A DNA stretch of 41,631 bases, taken from IMG/VR virus record IMGVR_UViG_3300032270_000152, positions 1 through 41,631 of that record. The stretch is one strand, 5' to 3'. Both the position numbers and the translations under genes were made by a program. Shown one piece after another: positions 1,682 through 34,080 of this stretch. The notes below the pieces were generated by a model. It had not been told where the DNA came from. It did no database searches and worked only from the letters and a program-made list of their open reading frames with translations. The DNA comes from a virus (taxonomy: Duplodnaviria; Caudoviricetes). Position 1 is the stretch's first letter. The number at the start of each line of letters is the position of its first letter.

Positions 1682-1886
1682 ATTCAGCTCCTGCGTCGCT
1701 GGAGTGCGCCTGTCTGCACGCGATCGAGCGACTGCCTTGAGGCTTGGCAACGGCAACATCAGCCAAGGCGTGCGGTATGCGCTGCGGTTTGCTGCTGATG
1801 AACGCGCCAGTGTTGCGCCGCTGTCTGAGATCCTGCGGTCTGCCGCGAGGATGGCCGAGTCCCTTGAACAGAAACAAAAGGCATGA
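1674..1886 (+). CDS. small putative DNA-binding protein (ribbon-helix-helix-like)
   Basis: GVRLSARDRATALRLGNGNISQGVRYAL fits a strand-helix-helix pattern; ATGA overlap with thyX. Confidence 0.55.
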   Translation: MAEFSSCVAGVRLSARDRATALRLGNGNISQGVRYALRFAADERASVAPLSEILRSAARMAESLEQKQKA

Positions 1887-2512
1887 CCACCACCTTCATC
1901 CACTGCACGCCGAACGCTGAGCAGCTGATTGTCAAGATGGCCAGGGTCAGCAACCCGGCCAACGCCGACAACACGGCGACAGCGCCGAAGCTGTTGCAGT
2001 ACCTGATCAGGCACCGGCACTGGTCACCGTTTGAGATGGCCAGCCTGTGCATCAAGATCGAGACCGAGCGTGACATTGCGGCGCAGATTCTCCGGCACCG
2101 GTCGTTCAGCTTCCAAGAGTTCAGCACCAGGTATGCAGAGACCGGCCAGGCCGAGATCCCGGCATTTCGCCGGCAGGACACCGCCAACCGGCAGAACAGC
2201 ACCGACGACCTGGACCCTGAGGTGATCGATGTTCTGCAGATGGACGCCGGCGGTGTCATCGCCGCGGCCTTTCTGACGTACCAGACCATGCTGCTGCAGG
2301 GTGTGGCCAAGGAGACGGCACGCCGGATCCTGCCGCTTTGCACGCCGACCACGTTGTACATGCACGGCACACTTCGTAGTTGGCTGCACTACATCGAGGT
2401 TCGCACCGGGCCTGAGACCCAACTGGAGCACCGGCTGATCGCTGAAGGCTGCCGGGCGATCTTCGCCAAACAGTTCCCCACCATTGCCGAAGCCGCCTTT
2501 GAGGCGTCATGA
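1883..2512 (+). CDS. thyX: FAD-dependent thymidylate synthase ThyX
   Basis: HWSPFE, RHRSFSFQEFSTRY (RHRx7S motif), ETARRILP, TQLEHR. Confidence 0.97.
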   Translation: MTTTFIHCTPNAEQLIVKMARVSNPANADNTATAPKLLQYLIRHRHWSPFEMASLCIKIETERDIAAQILRHRSFSFQEFSTRYAETGQAEIPAFRRQDTANRQNSTDDLDPEVIDVLQMDAGGVIAAAFLTYQTMLLQGVAKETARRILPLCTPTTLYMHGTLRSWLHYIEVRTGPETQLEHRLIAEGCRAIFAKQFPTIAEAAFEAS

Positions 2513-2853
2513 GGTGCCGCTGGTGCAACGGCAAGGCCAGAGTTACCCACGTGACCCATCGCGCAGACGGTACGCATCGCTGGCTGCGGTGCTTCGACTG
2601 TGACGGCGGCTTCCGCACGCTTGAGGCCTATCTGATCCCCAAGCCAGGGCCGCCACTTGGCTCCAAGAAGTCCGGACCTGCCGCCAATGGATCACGCAAT
2701 GCAGCCTCAGTGCTGACCGAAGAAGACGTGACCCGACTGCGACAGATGGCAGCAGATGGGGTGATGCAAAAGGAAATCGCCCGGATCTATGGCATCATGC
2801 CCAATACGGTATCCCGTATCGTCAACCGCAAAGCTTGGAGACACATCCCATGA
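2509..2853 (+). CDS. NrdR-like zinc ribbon fused to a C-terminal helix-turn-helix
   Basis: MRCRWC...RWLRCFDCDGGFRTLE (two CxxC); QKEIARIYGIMPNTVSRIV HTH. Confidence 0.65.
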   Translation: MRCRWCNGKARVTHVTHRADGTHRWLRCFDCDGGFRTLEAYLIPKPGPPLGSKKSGPAANGSRNAASVLTEEDVTRLRQMAADGVMQKEIARIYGIMPNTVSRIVNRKAWRHIP

Positions 2854-3713
2854 CATCCGATCACATCAGGGACTACCTCAACGAAATCGCCCGCTATCCG
2901 CTGCTGACACCAGATCAAGAGATTCAGCTGTCACGGCAGGTGCATCGAATGCTGGAACTGGAGGCAATGCCAGGCGACCGGACGATGCGCGAAAAGCGTG
3001 AGATCAAGGTTGGCGCTCGTGCGCGTGACTCGATCATCCGCAGCAATCTGCGATTGGTGGTTCATATCGCAAAGCGCTACAACTCCAGGTTGCGCCATAA
3101 CAGCCTCGACATGATGGACCTAATCCAAGAAGGCGCCCTCGGCCTGCATCGCGCTGCGGAGAAGTTTGATGGCACCAAGGGTTACAGGTTTTCAACTTAT
3201 GCCTATTGGTGGATCAGGCAGGCGATCAATCGAGGCATTGACACGAAAGAGCGGCTGATCAGGGTGCCGCAACACATGATCGAGCGGATCTATTCAATCA
3301 CGAGGATACAATCCGAGTTTGCGCAAGAACATGGACGACATCCAAGCATCAAGGAGATCTCTGAGATCATTGACCTTCCAATGGATGAGCTGACGATGTT
3401 GCTACAACGCAATACAACGCATTCCAGTTTGGATTCACTGGCTGTTGAGGATGGCAGCGCATTGATTGACATGATACCCAGTCAAACCGACAACAGCGAC
3501 GATCTGACCAATGAATACTACGATCAGCTTCATCTGGCTTTTTTTAAGCTTGATCCAGCGGAGCGAGAAATCTTATCCGGTCAATACGGGCTGAATGATA
3601 CGCCACACATCACGATGCGGGAAATCGGTGAGCGCCAAGGCGTATCACGCGAACGGATCAGGCAGAAGATGGTGGTTGCGAAGCAAAAGTTACGTATTGC
3701 GCTCTGCCAGTAA
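2850..3713 (+). CDS. RNA polymerase sigma factor, RpoD/SigA family
   Basis: YLNEIARYPLLT (region 1.2); NLRLVVHIAKRY, DLIQEG, KGYRFSTYAYWWIRQAI (region 2); GVSRERIRQ (region 4.2); ATGA overlap. Confidence 0.95.
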   Translation: MTSDHIRDYLNEIARYPLLTPDQEIQLSRQVHRMLELEAMPGDRTMREKREIKVGARARDSIIRSNLRLVVHIAKRYNSRLRHNSLDMMDLIQEGALGLHRAAEKFDGTKGYRFSTYAYWWIRQAINRGIDTKERLIRVPQHMIERIYSITRIQSEFAQEHGRHPSIKEISEIIDLPMDELTMLLQRNTTHSSLDSLAVEDGSALIDMIPSQTDNSDDLTNEYYDQLHLAFFKLDPAEREILSGQYGLNDTPHITMREIGERQGVSRERIRQKMVVAKQKLRIALCQ

Positions 3714-27045: not shown

Positions 27046-28104
27046 TTACCGGACTTGAACAGGCATCACCAGGTACAGGCTATCGGCGTCAGTGGCGGAA
27101 GTGAACACCACAGGCGTCGTTGCCGTATTGGTCTTGATGCTCAGGGTATCACCACTGATGCCCTTGATGCCGTCGATCAGGTAGTGAACGTTTGCCGCCA
27201 TAGTCGGCAGCTTGCCGTCACAGGCGATCAGCTCGCTGCCGCTGTTGGCCTCAGCCTCGGCTGCAACCTTGAGCGCCATGCCATCAACCTGCAGCTTCAC
27301 GACGCTGTTGTGGCTGTCGGCGATGACGGCGACACGCTCCAAAGCGTGCAGCAATGACAGCCGGTTGACGGTCAGCACCTGCGCGAAGGATGCAGGGACA
27401 AGCGCCTGCACGTTCGGGTATGTGCCCTCCAGCGTCCCGGAGATGATCGTGGTGCCGTCTGCGAGCACGATGGCCGCCTGGCGATTGTCCACGGTCAGCA
27501 CGGCAGACTGCTTGACCTGCTGCAGTGTCCGGGCTGGCACCACCACGTCGAGATCTGCGATGTCGGCGGTGATGGATCGAGAGGCAAGCCGATGGCCGTC
27601 GGTGGCCTCGATGCGAAGCGTGCCGCCAGCGCTGCGCAAGTGGATGCCGGTCAGCAGCTGTTTGCTTGCGTCGGTCGCAACAGCAGGCATCACGGCAGCC
27701 AAAGCGCCGGAGAGGTCCACAGGAGCCCCTGCAGCGGCATCCACGGCAGGCAATGCGGGAAAGTCATCCGCAGAGGCCACTGAGAGGCTGTAAGAGCCGC
27801 TGGAAGCGGTCAACGTGACCCGTGCGCCATCAACGGCCAGCGAGAGCGCCTGAGAGCCGTCCAGACGGCCTGCGATGTCCGCCAGCAGCCGATGCGGCAC
27901 GACGGTGGCTCCAGGCACCTCCACGGCGGCGGTGATGGTGGTACTGATGCCGAGGTCCAGGTCGTAGGCGGTGACGCGCAGGTGGCCATCAGCGGCCTGC
28001 AGCAGCACGCCCGACAGGATCTGATGCGTGCGGCCACTGCCGACAGCACGCGAGACAAGTCGGAGCGCGTGTGAAAGTTCAGATTGTGCGACGAGGATTT
28101 TCAT
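27046..28104 (-). CDS. dnaN: DNA polymerase III beta sliding clamp
   Basis: ILSGVLL, AYDLDLGI, DDFPALP, ATDGHRL, GTYPN, YLVMPVQ; 352 aa. Confidence 0.95.
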   Translation of the reverse strand: MKILVAQSELSHALRLVSRAVGSGRTHQILSGVLLQAADGHLRVTAYDLDLGISTTITAAVEVPGATVVPHRLLADIAGRLDGSQALSLAVDGARVTLTASSGSYSLSVASADDFPALPAVDAAAGAPVDLSGALAAVMPAVATDASKQLLTGIHLRSAGGTLRIEATDGHRLASRSITADIADLDVVVPARTLQQVKQSAVLTVDNRQAAIVLADGTTIISGTLEGTYPNVQALVPASFAQVLTVNRLSLLHALERVAVIADSHNSVVKLQVDGMALKVAAEAEANSGSELIACDGKLPTMAANVHYLIDGIKGISGDTLSIKTNTATTPVVFTSATDADSLYLVMPVQVR

Positions 28105-31056: not shown

Positions 31057-31239
31057 ATGCCGCCAACCAAACCAATTTTTCGCATCACCTACCTCCGGCC
31101 CTGGGGGCCATGCGTGGTCAATACCGCGCAGTTCCAAACAGAAACCGAGCTTCGGATTGGTTTTGCCAAATCCTATCCAGGCTGCGAGTTGGTTTCCGTT
31201 GAAGACGTGACCACCTACTTTTTCCCTGCAACCAAATAA
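31057..31239 (+). CDS. hypothetical protein
   Basis: MPPTKPIFRITYLRPWG...; first gene after the promoter; its stop overlaps the next gene's start. Confidence 0.65.
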   Translation: MPPTKPIFRITYLRPWGPCVVNTAQFQTETELRIGFAKSYPGCELVSVEDVTTYFFPATK

Positions 31240-32552
31240 GGATTTTTACAGAGGCAGATGTTTACACTGCATCACAGCAACGCTTAGACTTTATCTTTGC
31301 AAACTTTGCAAGGATTTACGTTTCTTTCTCTGGAGGCAAGGACTCTGGCGTACTGTTGAATCTTGTTATTGATTATGTGCGCAAACATGGAATTAAAACT
31401 AAGATTGGCGTGCAAATCATGGACAATGAAGCGAATTATACGCACAGCGAGCAGTTCATGCACGAAATCATTCAAGACAATTTAGACGTTCTTGATGTTT
31501 ACTGGTGCTGCCTTCCAATTACGCTTCCATGCACCGTTTCTTCTTATGAGATTGATTGGCAATGCTGGGGCGAAAACGATCGCCACAGATGGATTCGCCC
31601 CATGCCGGAGCAAGAGTATATTGTTAATTTGCAAAACCATCCTTTTGGCGATTTGTTTGTCGAAAATATGGACTACGCTACTTTTTGGGATATGTTTGCC
31701 GAGTGGTACAGCCAAGGCGAACCATGCGCTAACCTGATTGGCATCCGCACCGTTGAATCACTCAATCGGTTTCGGGCAATCATGAATCAAGATAAAGAAA
31801 CAATGCATGGAATGATGTGGACAAAGAAAAATACTGATCACACCTTTAATTGCTATCCAATTTACGACTGGCGTACAGAAGACATCTGGACTGCCAACGC
31901 CAAGTTCGGATGGAATTACAACAAACTTTACGACGTATTTTATATGGCTGGCATTCCAATCAAAAAAATGCGGGTTGCCTCGCCGTTCATGTCAGAGTCT
32001 AAATCTAGCCTTGCCATGTATCGGGTGATTGACCCGCAGATTTGGGCCAGGCTTTGCGCACGAGTTGGTGGCGCCAACTTTATGGCCACCTACGGAAAAC
32101 AACTTGACTACAAATCCTTCAGGCTGCCAGCCGGCCACACCTGGAAATCGTTCGTCAAGTTCCTGCTTGCCACTTTGCCAGATCAATCCAGCGCAAATTT
32201 TAAGCAGCGCTTCATTCAGTCAATCCGTTACTGGGGCAGAGTGGGGCGCGGTCTTCCTGATGTCATCATTGAAGCTCTTGGCCGCATTGGCATCCGTTTT
32301 TACATCAACGGCACCACGCGCCATGGCGGCAACAACCTACGCCGTGTTGTCATCAAGGTACCGCCCGACCACCTTGATAACCTGCCATGCCATAACAGCA
32401 TGGTCACGTCATGGAAGCGATTCGCTATCACTGTTCTCAAGAACGACCACACTTGCAAATACCTTGGCCTTGCTCCGACGCAAGAGCAGCAGCGCCGACA
32501 AAAGTCAATTCAACGCAAGTACAGCCAAGTCCTCAACCGCTCAATCAAATGA
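31236..32552 (+). CDS. IbrA/YbdN-like PAPS-reductase-family PP-loop protein with DUF3440; apparent ATA start
   Basis: YVSFSGGKDSG, LIGIRTVESLNR, YPIYDWRTEDIW, YNKLYD, MRVASPF, RVGGANF, SWKRFAITVLKND; the frame is open from 31203 but has no ATG/GTG/TTG before 31356. Confidence 0.9.
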   Translation: MRIFTEADVYTASQQRLDFIFANFARIYVSFSGGKDSGVLLNLVIDYVRKHGIKTKIGVQIMDNEANYTHSEQFMHEIIQDNLDVLDVYWCCLPITLPCTVSSYEIDWQCWGENDRHRWIRPMPEQEYIVNLQNHPFGDLFVENMDYATFWDMFAEWYSQGEPCANLIGIRTVESLNRFRAIMNQDKETMHGMMWTKKNTDHTFNCYPIYDWRTEDIWTANAKFGWNYNKLYDVFYMAGIPIKKMRVASPFMSESKSSLAMYRVIDPQIWARLCARVGGANFMATYGKQLDYKSFRLPAGHTWKSFVKFLLATLPDQSSANFKQRFIQSIRYWGRVGRGLPDVIIEALGRIGIRFYINGTTRHGGNNLRRVVIKVPPDHLDNLPCHNSMVTSWKRFAITVLKNDHTCKYLGLAPTQEQQRRQKSIQRKYSQVLNRSIK

Positions 32553-33484
32553 AAATTTTGAACGCCGCTCAACTTTCTGACGATCGCGTTGTGCAATGCC
32601 CTCGCGGTGGTTTCACCAGTCATCGTCTCGTCGTTGAAACGGATGGCATGGGCTACAGCATGACCAAAACTGTTATCCACCCTGGCAAGCCTCACCGCTG
32701 GCATTATCAGCACCATCTCGAAACTTGCTATTGCATCAGCGGCAAAGGTTTGCTGATCAACGAAGCAACGCAAGAAATGATTACGGTTGGCCCTGACGTG
32801 ACCTACGTGCTTGACAAGCACGATGCTCACACATTTGAAGCGTTAGAGCCAACCACGCTGATCTGCGTTTTCAATCCACCCCTCAAGGGCGACGAGCTTC
32901 ACGATGCAAACGACTCTTATCCTTGGCGATCTCCCGTCTATTCTGTTCGCAGCATTCCTATTGAAAAAGTTACCGCCAACGATTACAACCCCAACTCTGT
33001 GGCGCCACCTGAAATGGCACTACTTGAAACATCAATTTGGGAGGATGGTTACACGCAGCCCGTCGTGGTAGTACACGATGCCGAACAAGACCTTTATGTA
33101 GTTGTTGATGGCTTTCACCGTTATTTGACACTAAAAAACAGCCAGCGCATCCGCGAGCGCGAAGGCGGTCGGCTTCCTGTGGTCGTATTGCGTAAAGAAT
33201 TGCACGACAGGATGGCTTCAACCATCCGACACAACCGTGCACGTGGCTCGCATAACATTGAGCTTATGAGCGTGATTGTGTCAGAGCTTATTGAAATGGG
33301 CAAGGGCGACGCGTGGATCTGCAAGCACATTGGCATGAGCCCAGATGAGCTGTTGCGCCTTAAACAGGTCACGGGCTTGGCTTCTTTGTTTTTTGGCAAA
33401 GAATTTAGCAAATCATGGGAGGTCGATCAAATGGATGAAGCGGAGTTAGCTGATGAAGCTGAAGAGAGTTTGGTTGCCAATTGA
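32549..33484 (+). CDS. ectoine synthase (EctC)-like cupin fused to IbrB/ParB-sulfiredoxin-like domain
   Basis: aa 1-125: HYQHHLETCYCISGKG, YVLDKHDAH, CVFNPPLKGDELHD; aa ~128-311: ANDYNPNSVAPPEM.LL..SI.EDGYTQP, VVDGFHR, RMASTIRHNRARG; ATGA overlap. Confidence 0.9.
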   Translation: MKILNAAQLSDDRVVQCPRGGFTSHRLVVETDGMGYSMTKTVIHPGKPHRWHYQHHLETCYCISGKGLLINEATQEMITVGPDVTYVLDKHDAHTFEALEPTTLICVFNPPLKGDELHDANDSYPWRSPVYSVRSIPIEKVTANDYNPNSVAPPEMALLETSIWEDGYTQPVVVVHDAEQDLYVVVDGFHRYLTLKNSQRIREREGGRLPVVVLRKELHDRMASTIRHNRARGSHNIELMSVIVSELIEMGKGDAWICKHIGMSPDELLRLKQVTGLASLFFGKEFSKSWEVDQMDEAELADEAEESLVAN

Positions 33485-33878
33485 CCAATGGGAAGAGGTG
33501 CCAGCCAATATGTGGGGAGAGGTCGCTAACAGACGCCTTTACCTACAAAGAGCTGTTATCTTTACCGGCAATCATCGCCTTTACGGGCGATACATGAGGC
33601 GAGTCATCCACGAATGGCCTAACAGCTGCGTTAACGCCTTGACTGATTACAACTTGAATCGAAAAGCATGGATAGGGCACGCCGCCTGCGCGTTGGCCCT
33701 TAGATGCCCTGAAGACATCACTCGACAAGCATGGGGATTATTGACCGATGAACAACGGACACTGGCGAACCGACAAGCGGATCGAACCATTTGCGCCTGG
33801 GAGGTGTGCTACCGAGCGAGTCTTGGAATACGTCAAGACTTGGCAGCGCCGCTGCTATTCGGGGGGGATACCAGATGA
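33453..33878 (+). CDS. Trp-rich hypothetical protein of the IbrAB-like cassette
   Basis: WEE...MW, WPNSCVNALT, NRKAWIGHAAC, CPEDITRQAW; GGAG upstream; overlaps both neighbours. Confidence 0.8.
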   Translation: MKLKRVWLPIDQWEEVPANMWGEVANRRLYLQRAVIFTGNHRLYGRYMRRVIHEWPNSCVNALTDYNLNRKAWIGHAACALALRCPEDITRQAWGLLTDEQRTLANRQADRTICAWEVCYRASLGIRQDLAAPLLFGGDTR

Positions 33879-34080
33879 GGTGCCAGCAAAGATAGCTGCA
33901 TCTGGACGCGCTCCGTCTTGGCGTGCCGTGGCCATTGCCATACTTCAAAACGACTTGCATTTGTACCAACTTGGATATGCAAGACCTGCATATGATCAAC
34001 AGCGGCGAACCGTTCGCATGGCGCAGATTGCAATCCATGGTTGCGTACCTGAAGGAACTCAATTGGAGCTGTTTTTATGA
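33748..34080 (+). CDS. stand-alone DUF3440-like domain protein
   Basis: YVKTWQRRCYSGGIPDE...PSWRAVAIAILQNDLHLYQLG matches the C-terminus of 31236..32552; ATGA overlap with the helicase; start uncertain. Confidence 0.75.
   Translation: MNNGHWRTDKRIEPFAPGRCATERVLEYVKTWQRRCYSGGIPDEVPAKIAASGRAPSWRAVAIAILQNDLHLYQLGYARPAYDQQRRTVRMAQIAIHGCVPEGTQLELFL

What the first reader, a model, noticed from the sequence alone, without database searches (positions are those of the whole stretch)
32549..33484. Orphan ectoine-synthase-like cupin fused to an IbrB/ParB-Srx domain
Seen: residues 1-125 follow EctC along its whole length, including CVFNPP..G.E.HD, and join with almost no linker to SPVYSV...ANDYNPN of IbrB. 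By manual alignment from memory, the EctC iron ligands Glu/Tyr/His are kept (E58, Y86, H94), as are S24, R26, T41, Y53 and H56. The substrate-stacking Trp is Phe (F22) and the Asn/His position is Thr (T39). No ectA or ectB is present. Established: solitary EctC-type proteins exist, and EctC has side activities such as glutamine cyclisation. Inference: an active metallo-cupin with altered substrate, channelled to the ParB/Srx nucleotide-binding domain. Automatic annotation as an osmolyte gene would probably be wrong.
Basis: partly seen in the sequence, partly recalled or inferred. Interest (0 to 1): 0.85.

Follow-up and report, generated by a model that had tools for sequence, protein, structure and literature searches.

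The report
Phage ectoine-ring enzyme feeding IbrA ligase
This phage gene joins an ectoine-synthase-type enzyme to a ParB-like protein inside a five-part gene set found in many phages, which likely makes a small ectoine-like ring and likely attaches it to replicating phage DNA through a neighbouring predicted ATP-using enzyme, so it is probably not the salt-stress gene that automatic annotation takes it for.

Summary
Observation confirmed. 32549-33484 encodes an EctC-family cupin (Pfam 124 bits; modelled fold Z 18.5 to EctC) joined to IbrB, with the residues as stated; the fusion recurs in many phages and is already named in GenBank (mycobacteriophage Gaia gp104). The fusion is incidental: about half of the sampled relatives are split. 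The unit is a cassette of IbrA (PP-loop enzyme), cupin, IbrB, ORF3 and ORF4; 159 of 160 viral cupins lie beside ibrA or ibrB, none beside ectA/ectB. They form their own branch, apart from ectABC-linked and bacterial solitary EctC, and none keeps Trp21 (0 of 96). The product seems to go to IbrA, not to the ParB site: cassettes that add an EctD-like hydroxylase switch two IbrA residues (10 of 10, against 189 and 191 of 191 unchanged), in several IbrA lineages, with no such switch in cupin or IbrB. IbrB's tail is predicted to dock on IbrA, and ORF4 ends in a clamp-type peptide. Best reading: an ectoine-like ring is made, adenylated by IbrA and attached to replicating DNA (0.45; untested). This window's ibrA start reads ATA. 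This scan found the cassette before on other DNA.

The parts
32549..33484 (+). Cupin-IbrB fusion gene, 311 aa; start overlaps the ibrA stop (ATGA)
   Evidence: Met1 shared by 119 of 121 aligned proteins, so the longer frame from 32411 is not the start
32549..32923 (+). EctC-type cupin domain (residues 1-125): E58/Y86/H94 metal ligands and S24, R26, T41, Y53, H56, F108 kept; F22, K40, W51, C60, F96 mark the phage branch
   Evidence: model matches 5ONO at Z 18.5, rmsd 2.0 over 120 residues
32930..33424 (+). IbrB: ParB/Srx-type domain (YNPN, DGFHR), helix-turn-helix-like helices, and a conserved tail (276-292) predicted to dock on IbrA
   Evidence: complex model
31236..32552 (+). ibrA: PP-loop (SFSGGKDS) PAPS-reductase-like domain plus DUF3440, 438 codons read from ATA at 31236; close relatives have ATG there, and the first ATG/GTG/TTG start (31356) lies behind the PP-loop
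   Evidence: fold like FAD synthase, CysH, CysD (Z 10.7-12.0); weak DndC match E 1.7e-6
33453..33878 (+). ORF3, 141 aa, no family match; conserved member of the cassette
   Evidence: present in 102 of 104 loci with 3 kb or more on both sides; no family over a cut-off in Pfam, NCBIfam or PHROGs
33748..34080 (+). ORF4, 110 aa, overlapping ORF3; free copy of IbrA's C-terminal module, ending in QLELFL, a sliding-clamp-type peptide (motif recalled)
   Evidence: profile E 3e-17 to IbrA; QxxLF end in 31 of 83 against 4 of 1399 background frames
27046..28104 (-). Context: the phage's own DNA polymerase III beta clamp, a candidate docking site for ORF4
   Evidence: three Pfam DNA_pol3_beta domains; binding not tested

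Best explanation
The gene is one part of a five-part phage cassette in which the cupin likely cyclises a common host amino-acid amide into an ectoine-like ring, which the neighbouring PP-loop enzyme IbrA likely binds, activates with ATP and likely attaches to replicating phage DNA. Shown: the domains, residues, cassette, separate branch and covariation. Predicted: IbrB's C-terminal tail binds IbrA, so the fusion simply tethers the cupin next to IbrA. Inferred: (1) the cupin is an Fe(II) amide-amine condensing enzyme, about 0.75; its substrate is not N-gamma-ADABA, with glutamine (giving ADPC, a reported EctC side reaction) or an N-acetyl diamino acid such as acetylornithine (my suggestion) as candidates; (2) IbrA consumes the ring, about 0.7 given (1); some cassettes hydroxylate it first with an EctD-like enzyme; (3) the target is DNA, reached through IbrB's ParB/HTH domains and ORF4's clamp peptide, about 0.6 given (2), most likely to shield the genome from host nucleases.
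For: Cupin: all catalytic and metal residues except W21 and N38 invariant in 121 of 121 fusions; dN/dS 0.056. Cassette: 159 of 160 distinct viral cupin genes lie within 5.5 kb of ibrA or ibrB; among 104 with long flanks ibrA 104, ibrB 104, ORF3 102, ORF4 101, ectA 0, ectB 0; starting from IbrA instead, 77 of 79 loci hold the cupin. Branch: 96 cassette cupins on one side, 35 ectABC-linked and 18 solitary on the other, SH-aLRT 100. No supply of the normal substrate: ectA in 1 of 401 genomes sampled from the cyanobacterial phylum, the likely host group (terminase 74-78% identical to S-H1, KBS-S-2A, MED4-117). Ectoine-like product: an EctD-like gene sits in the cassette in 23 of 23 pattern hits, 18 clusters at 90% identity. 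IbrA as consumer: Y147 to D and W151 to Y in 10 of 10 EctD-linked IbrA, against Y 189 of 191 and W 191 of 191 otherwise; no complete switch in cupin, IbrB, ORF3 or ORF4; these IbrA are not one clade once columns 141-151 are dropped (AU p 6.9e-7). Complex model: score 0.68 against best control 0.01, a mark reached by 116 of 157 solved complexes and 2 of 215 mismatched pairs; runs agree in at least 65% of contacts, partner pLDDT at least 69. DNA link: IbrA matches DndC weakly, IbrB matches ParB/Noc, ORF4 clamp-type ends, neighbours are replication and recombination genes.
Against: No activity, substrate or modified DNA has been measured. IbrA's closest solved folds adenylate phosphate or sulfate on small molecules, not DNA or a carboxylate. 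The D147/Y151 state also occurs in a distant cupin-less IbrA (L507), and the shared MxDKxFY motif may have spread by segment exchange (the N-terminal tree forces only one origin), so the number of independent events is uncertain. The EctD pattern was designed from two phage sequences. Most IbrAB pairs in cultured phages lack the cupin (0 of 8 fetched regions), and one cassette has a peroxiredoxin in its place, so IbrAB can work without it. EctD plus EctC is also what the osmolyte pathway uses. E. coli IbrAB are described as co-activators of prophage genes. This window's ibrA lacks its ATG.
Confidence: 0.45

Rival explanations
1. The cupin makes an ectoine-like ring and IbrA binds or adenylates it, but the outcome is a soluble signal or a regulatory switch: IbrA-IbrB act on gene expression, replication or a host defence protein, and DNA is not modified.
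For: Explains the EctD-linked IbrA changes equally well. IbrA's nearest folds act on small molecules. [quoted passage not shown] IbrB has HTH-like helices.
Against: The clamp-type peptide on an IbrA-derived module and the DndC likeness point to processive work on DNA; extreme conservation across unrelated hosts fits an enzyme better than a promoter-specific regulator (inference).
Confidence: 0.25
2. Reverse order: IbrA first ligates an amino acid or acyl group to a nucleotide or DNA, and the cupin (and EctD-like enzyme) then tailor the attached group.
For: PP-loop enzymes such as TilS form base-amino acid adducts and share the fold (Z 8.2); removes the need for a special free substrate.
Against: IbrA would not need to change when a later hydroxylase is added, yet it does. 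EctC has a lid over a small barrel (PMC6344544), and the lid motif is kept, which suits a free small substrate.
Confidence: 0.12
3. One reading: the cupin's product is handed to the ParB/Srx site of IbrB, which phosphorylates or otherwise uses it, as the SerK/SbnI kinases do with serine.
For: The fusion itself; DGFHR kept; weak profile hits to SbnI and SerK, E about 0.02.
Against: 79 of 162 distinct genes are split; in 14 of 67 split representatives ibrB does not follow the cupin; no EctD-linked switch in 166 IbrB columns.
Confidence: 0.1
4. It is a true ectoine synthase, an auxiliary gene for osmoprotection that uses host N-gamma-ADABA, riding beside IbrAB as cargo.
For: Passes the NCBIfam ectoine synthase cut-off; EctD-like genes accompany it in some cassettes; a stress gene (peroxiredoxin) fills the same slot once; two virome papers read viral ectoine synthase this way (PMC12647753, PMC13079714).
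Against: Trp21, conserved in 437 of 437 cluster-encoded EctC and needed for activity (W21A keeps 9.7%; PMC6344544), is absent in 96 of 96; no ectA/ectB in 104 loci; ectA in 1 of 401 cyanobacterial genomes; cargo would not drive changes in IbrA.
Confidence: 0.08

Closest known systems
Mycobacterium phage Gaia gp103-107 (KJ567043; gp104 'ectoine synthase/ParB multidomain protein'), phage Nebkiss, Pseudoalteromonas phage XCL1123
   Same: Same fusion (67% identity; split in XCL1123) after a 'PAPS reductase' and before ORF3 and ORF4 homologues.
   Different: Annotation only; none of my 10 paper searches found a study of it. Gaia has an extra gene (called GIY-YIG-like in Nebkiss) inside the cassette.
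Ectoine synthase EctC (PF06339; 5ONM/5ONN/5ONO, 5BXX/5BY5)
   Same: Fold, metal ligands, S/R/T/Y/H/F substrate residues and C-terminal lid motif.
   Different: W21 to F, N38/H mostly replaced in fusions, W51, F96, C60, K40; separate branch; no ectAB; bound to IbrAB.
Solitary (orphan) EctC-type proteins of bacteria (PMC5924519, PMC6344544, PMC3979721)
   Same: No ectAB; function unresolved; Cys at position 60 shared with 15 of 18 sampled.
   Different: These keep the Trp (16 of 18 here), lack EctD according to PMC3979721, have no IbrAB context and fall on the other side of the tree.
IbrA/IbrB of E. coli and YbdN/YbdM; phage PAPS reductase + ParB pairs (PHROGs 2302, 2159)
   Same: Same two families, adjacent genes.
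   Different: A distinct IbrA subfamily (63-90% identical within, about 40% or less to others) with a conserved WCCxPxxxPC motif, plus cupin, ORF3 and ORF4.
Dnd phosphorothioation (DndC PP-loop with DndB ParB-type protein; PMC10853773)
   Same: A PP-loop enzyme paired with a ParB-superfamily protein; weak DndC profile match.
   Different: Far below the DndC cut-off (20 against 290 bits); no DndA, DndD or DndE seen; an amino-acid-cyclising cupin instead of a sulfur donor.

Membership tests
EctC family (PF06339) | Profile score over the curated cut-off | tested here: met
   124.3 bits against 27; NF009806 132.1 against 128
EctC family (PF06339) | EctC cupin fold and Glu/Tyr/His metal ligands | tested here: met
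   Z 18.5 to 5ONO, next row 13.2; E58, Y86, H94 in 121 of 121
Bona fide ectoine synthase (ectABC pathway) | Trp21 conserved | tested here: not met
   F22; Trp in 0 of 96 cassette cupins in either register, against 33 of 34 ectABC-linked
Bona fide ectoine synthase (ectABC pathway) | Asn38 (or His) carboxylate/proton-relay residue | tested here: not met
   T39 here and in 27 of 28 fused representatives; His survives in 34 of 68 split ones
Bona fide ectoine synthase (ectABC pathway) | ectA/ectB in the gene cluster or genome | tested here: not met
   0 of 104 loci; no ectB in the virus record
Bona fide ectoine synthase (ectABC pathway) | Nests among ectABC-linked enzymes | tested here: not met
   Separate side of a branch, SH-aLRT 100, quick tree of 118 columns, midpoint root
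Bona fide ectoine synthase (ectABC pathway) | Converts N-gamma-ADABA to ectoine | not testable with these tools
   needs an assay
Bacterial solitary EctC | Groups with them and keeps the (sometimes shifted) Trp | tested here: not met
   18 sampled solitary proteins lie outside the cassette branch; the sample is the best 80 hits from 16 of 64 parts of the genome collection
IbrB/YbdM | YNPN and DGFHR motifs, TIRHNRARG, HTH-like region, adjacent ibrA | tested here: met
   PHROG 2159 E 2e-76; 47% identical to the annotated IbrB of E. coli phage PhiR5_2; ibrA adjacent
Sulfiredoxin | Catalytic Cys in the GxHR motif (recalled) | tested here: not met
   Phe at that position, DGFHR
ParB/Srx NTP-using enzymes | Nucleotide binding and turnover | not testable with these tools
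   motif Arg kept; profile hits to ParB and Noc, E 4e-6 and 5e-5
Dnd/Ssp phosphorothioation system | DndC-level PP-loop enzyme with desulfurase and DndD/E partners | tested here: not met
   TIGR03183 20 bits against 290; no such partners among recurring neighbours
Ectoine hydroxylase EctD (added gene in related cassettes, not in this window) | TIGR02408 cut-off and the WHSDFETWH signature region | tested here: inconclusive
   284.5 and 173.3 bits against 336.5; core signature kept, residues before it changed; outside the bacterial EctD sampled

The most novel reading that the evidence does not exclude
Many tailed phages have repurposed the ectoine ring-making enzymes (EctC, and in some EctD) to decorate their own DNA with an ectoine-like, sometimes hydroxylated, cyclic amidine, installed at the replication fork by the long-unexplained IbrA/IbrB pair: an undescribed class of DNA modification, testable in cultured mycobacteriophage Gaia.
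Probability: 0.33. Interest if true: 0.92.

Novelty: new variant of a known kind. Interest (0 to 1): 0.68.

Why it matters
IbrA/IbrB (YbdN/YbdM) are widespread in phages and bacteria and have no known chemistry. This variant supplies a concrete candidate substrate class (an ectoine-like ring), two candidate pocket residues in IbrA, a predicted IbrA-IbrB interface and cultured phages to test in. It also warns that viral 'ectoine synthase' and 'PAPS reductase' calls are not safe evidence of osmoprotection or sulfur assimilation; two recent virome papers read viral ectoine synthase as a salt-stress gene, though I could not check whether their genes belong to this cassette.

Tried and rejected
Longer fusions (546-2000 aa, e.g. 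IbrA-cupin): none among 23 candidates, weak evidence. ORF3: no solved relative (best E 0.22), PHROGs only single weak hits among 82 members, Atlas look-alikes DUF4872/DUF1839 at 0.79-0.81, a lead only; it was not folded. The fold search of the fusion was filled by cupins and did not test the IbrB half. The cupin is not among the confident contacts of the complex model; this says nothing about whether it touches IbrA. PADLOC: no match for the fusion, ORF3 or ORF4. No RNA holder listed for the stretch. An early reading that the two first EctD-linked IbrA were one lineage (sisters at SH-aLRT 98) did not hold once more were added and the motif columns dropped. A single-protein EctD scan found only itself. 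The start at 32411 was rejected. Neighbour genes of the ectoine synthase genes in PMC12647753 were not in its supplementary table, so those genes cannot be assigned. Three MAGs with the cassette have no ectB over the cut-off, but may be incomplete. How often the fusion arose is unresolved (5 changes, 1 forced). Paper searches with no relevant study: ibrA+ibrB (14 papers), solitary ectC (2), ectoine synthase+phage+ParB (5), DUF3440 (4), PAPS reductase+ParB+phage+DNA modification (4), ectC+auxiliary metabolic gene (0), ectoine synthase+virome (4), TdpC/DndC (6), Gaia+ectoine (0), ectoine+hypermodif+phage (1); most subscription journals are not in that library.
Full report
Setting. The window is a whole 41.6 kb virus record of a tailed phage with terminase, portal, capsid, tape measure and lambda-like tail genes, ThyX, a sigma factor, a beta clamp and a primase-helicase. 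Its terminase is 74-78% identical to those of Synechococcus phage S-H1, KBS-S-2A and MED4-117, so the host is likely a picocyanobacterium (inference). Among 50,697 phage records only 4 cover 80% of the fusion and only 6 hold ORF3, none of them those cyanophages, so the cassette is accessory.

Observation. Confirmed as set out in the observation check. An AlphaFold model (mean pLDDT 77, cupin 85-97) matches EctC best: Foldseek E 1e-14 to 5BXX, Z 18.5 with rmsd 2.0 over 120 residues to 5ONO, next row 13.2. In 51 gap-free close relatives the median dN/dS is 0.056 for the cupin (592 pairs) and 0.014 for IbrB (924 pairs). A contig of the probable source run spans 31100-33481 without differences, which is not independent; the independent proof is the relatives. 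The fusion is already named in GenBank for Gaia gp104, and XCL1123 has the two halves as adjacent genes.

The unit is a cassette. Four viral scans and one genome scan gave 240 distinct cupin genes after removing identical DNA: 160 viral and 80 from bacterial or archaeal genomes. Of the viral ones 159 lie near ibrA or ibrB; the exception has only 0.5 kb downstream. Of the 80 cellular ones 3 are cassettes, 56 lie beside ectA/ectB and 21 are solitary. Of the 162 cassette genes 83 are fused and 79 split (this ratio depends on my queries). Among 104 with at least 3 kb on both sides, ibrA and ibrB are in all, ORF3 in 102, ORF4 in 101, ectA and ectB in none (the label itself required ibrA or ibrB, so the 159 of 160 is the non-circular count). 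Gene order is shuffled in several ways, yet ibrA directly precedes the cupin in 58 of 64 split representatives, while ibrB directly follows it in 53 of 67. Searching from IbrA instead, 77 of 79 loci with enough flank hold the cupin; one has a 1-Cys peroxiredoxin in its place and one is a distant IbrA. Eight regions from cultured phages with more distant IbrA have no cupin; two of them have ORF3.

A third kind of EctC. In a quick tree of 149 representatives (85% thinning, 118 columns) all 96 cassette cupins stand on one side and 35 ectABC-linked plus 18 solitary proteins on the other, SH-aLRT 100. S24, R26, T41, Y53, E58, Y86, E116 and H118 are invariant in nearly all groups. Trp21 is replaced: 93 of 96 have Phe and none Trp in the nine residues before S24, against Trp in 33 of 34 and 16 of 18. 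W51 (95 of 96) and F96 (96 of 96) occur in none of the 53 others; C60 is in 96 of 96 against Val in 35 of 35 ectABC-linked, but Cys in 15 of 18 solitary. That these side chains line the barrel is my inference from strand alternation. PMC6344544 (passages read) reports Trp21 in all 437 cluster-encoded EctC, 9.7% activity for W21A, the roles of Arg25, Asn38 and Thr40, and the glutamine-to-ADPC side reaction; PMC5924519 (passages) says that reaction is weak and favours hydrolysis, which counts against glutamine unless IbrA pulls the product away. The normal substrate needs EctA, found in 1 of 401 genomes sampled from the cyanobacterial phylum.

Where the product goes. Looking at genes inserted in cassettes, I found an EctD-like hydroxylase between ibrA and the cupin in L326 and L291; they are 37% identical. 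A pattern drawn from the two phage proteins gave 4 viral and 19 metagenome loci (two of them are the L326 and L291 contigs). All 23 have ibrA, the cassette cupin or both next to the hydroxylase, none shows ectA/ectB, and they form 18 clusters at 90% identity, 33-86% apart. A column scan of all five proteins (429, 113, 166, 120 and 86 columns) found two complete switches, both in IbrA: Y147 to D in 10 of 10 against Y in 189 of 191, and W151 to Y in 10 of 10 against W in 191 of 191; three weaker IbrA columns; nothing in cupin, IbrB, ORF3 or ORF4 (bacterial EctC loci, the EctD loci from earlier scans and the distant L507 were left out of the background). With columns 141-151 dropped, nine EctD-linked IbrA need 6 changes on a 39-row tree, at least 3 forced; holding them together is rejected (AU p 6.9e-7), and the part between the motif and the hydroxylase gene forces at least 5 changes, while the N-terminal part forces only 1. 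The shared MxDKxFY motif suggests segment exchange as much as convergence; either way the motif and the hydroxylase stay together across a stretch of different ancestry. L507, which has no cupin, also has D/Y. The simplest reading is that IbrA binds what the cupin makes and must change when it is hydroxylated. This is inference.

The chassis. IbrA has an intact PP-loop and folds like FAD synthase, APS/PAPS reductase and CysD (Z 12.0-10.2), then TilS and tRNA thiolases (Z 8-9); its profile matches DndC weakly. PMC10853773 (passages) describes DndC as a PP-loop pyrophosphatase working with the ParB-type DndB. IbrB matches ParB and Noc, and SerK/SbnI only at E about 0.02. The complex model of IbrA with the fusion scored 0.68 against a best control of 0.01 (mark reached by 116 of 157 solved complexes, 2 of 215 mismatched pairs; own alignments, so the counts hold roughly; runs agree in at least 65% of contacts, partner pLDDT at least 69); the interface is fusion residues 276-292 on IbrA residues 1-12 and 211-242. 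ORF4 is a free copy of IbrA's C-terminal module and ends in QxxLF in 31 of 83 representatives against 4 of 1399 background frames; a looser pattern, set after seeing the ends, gives 64 of 82 against 75 of 1399, and 1 of 95 for IbrB. The clamp consensus QL[SD]LF is recalled, and the lead came from note e1-6350650.

This copy. ibrA reads ATA at 31236-31238; four close relatives have ATG in the same overlap, and contigs of two other runs, one nearly identical, read G at 31238. The window's copy is either a variant with a weak or lost start or a consensus error; this does not touch the family-level reading.

What is known. PMC9068703 (passages) shows ybdNM repressed by YbdO with no biochemistry; PMC4490671, PMC4541368, PMC8813620 and bioRxiv 2021.01.05.425418 (passages) only note IbrA/B or DUF3440-bearing CysH in phages; PMC12839542 (passages) covers BrxP; PMC3979721 (passages) says ectD is absent from bacteria with solitary ectC. 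PMC12647753 (one passage and supplement rows) and PMC13079714 (one passage) read viral ectoine synthase as osmoprotection. The original IbrAB paper is recalled, not read. The ten searches listed under Tried and rejected found no study of this cassette; bioRxiv supplements were closed. This scan has noted the cassette several times on other DNA; those notes are not independent evidence.

Verdict. Real, not new as a domain architecture, and not an ordinary ectoine synthase. A distinct, widespread variant of the IbrAB module with a specific, testable chemical hypothesis. Interest 0.68.

Noticed in passing
window 31236-31238: ibrA start reads ATA where close relatives and contigs of two other runs have ATG; the first standard start lies behind the PP-loop, so this copy may be poorly translated or mis-assembled.
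   Followed up: partly
L326:4123-5004, L291:4159-4998, L510-L532: A phage branch of EctD-like hydroxylases found only inside this cassette, tied to IbrA D147/Y151.
   Followed up: yes
L422:2736-3485: A 1-Cys peroxiredoxin occupies the cupin's slot between ibrA and ibrB in one contig.
   Followed up: partly
L291:5001-6500: About 190 residues resembling a SAM methyltransferase (weak match, E 0.002) lie in frame between cupin and IbrB; a close relative (L520) has the ordinary length, so it may be a mobile insert.
   Followed up: partly
L078:2532-2849, L245:1391-1663, L324:4509-4841, L307:4510-5259, L248:5515-6210, L259:5483-6040: GIY-YIG-like and PD-(D/E)XK nuclease genes inserted inside cassettes.
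   Followed up: no
window ibrA, residues 90-110: Cupin-linked IbrA share a WCCxPxxxPC...WQCW motif plus conserved C274 and C407, largely absent from the cupin-less IbrA compared; possible metal or thiol site, in a low-confidence part of the model.
   Followed up: partly
window 33748-33878: ORF4 overlaps the end of ORF3 by 131 bases, and many ORF3 ends also carry a QMLF-like peptide (34 of 86 by the loose pattern).
   Followed up: partly
window 27046-28104 (-), 2835-3713 (+), 1883-2512 (+): The phage encodes its own beta clamp, an RpoD-like sigma factor and ThyX.
   Followed up: no
L157, L158, L159: Cassettes in three MAGs titled Gallionella, Bacteroidota and Planctomycetota, probably prophage or mis-binned phage contigs; L159 has a beta clamp gene nearby.
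   Followed up: no
L363:1-4137: In Microbacterium phage Leaf a distant IbrA lies beside glycosyltransferase, acetyltransferase and methyltransferase genes, which also suggests a modification role.
   Followed up: no
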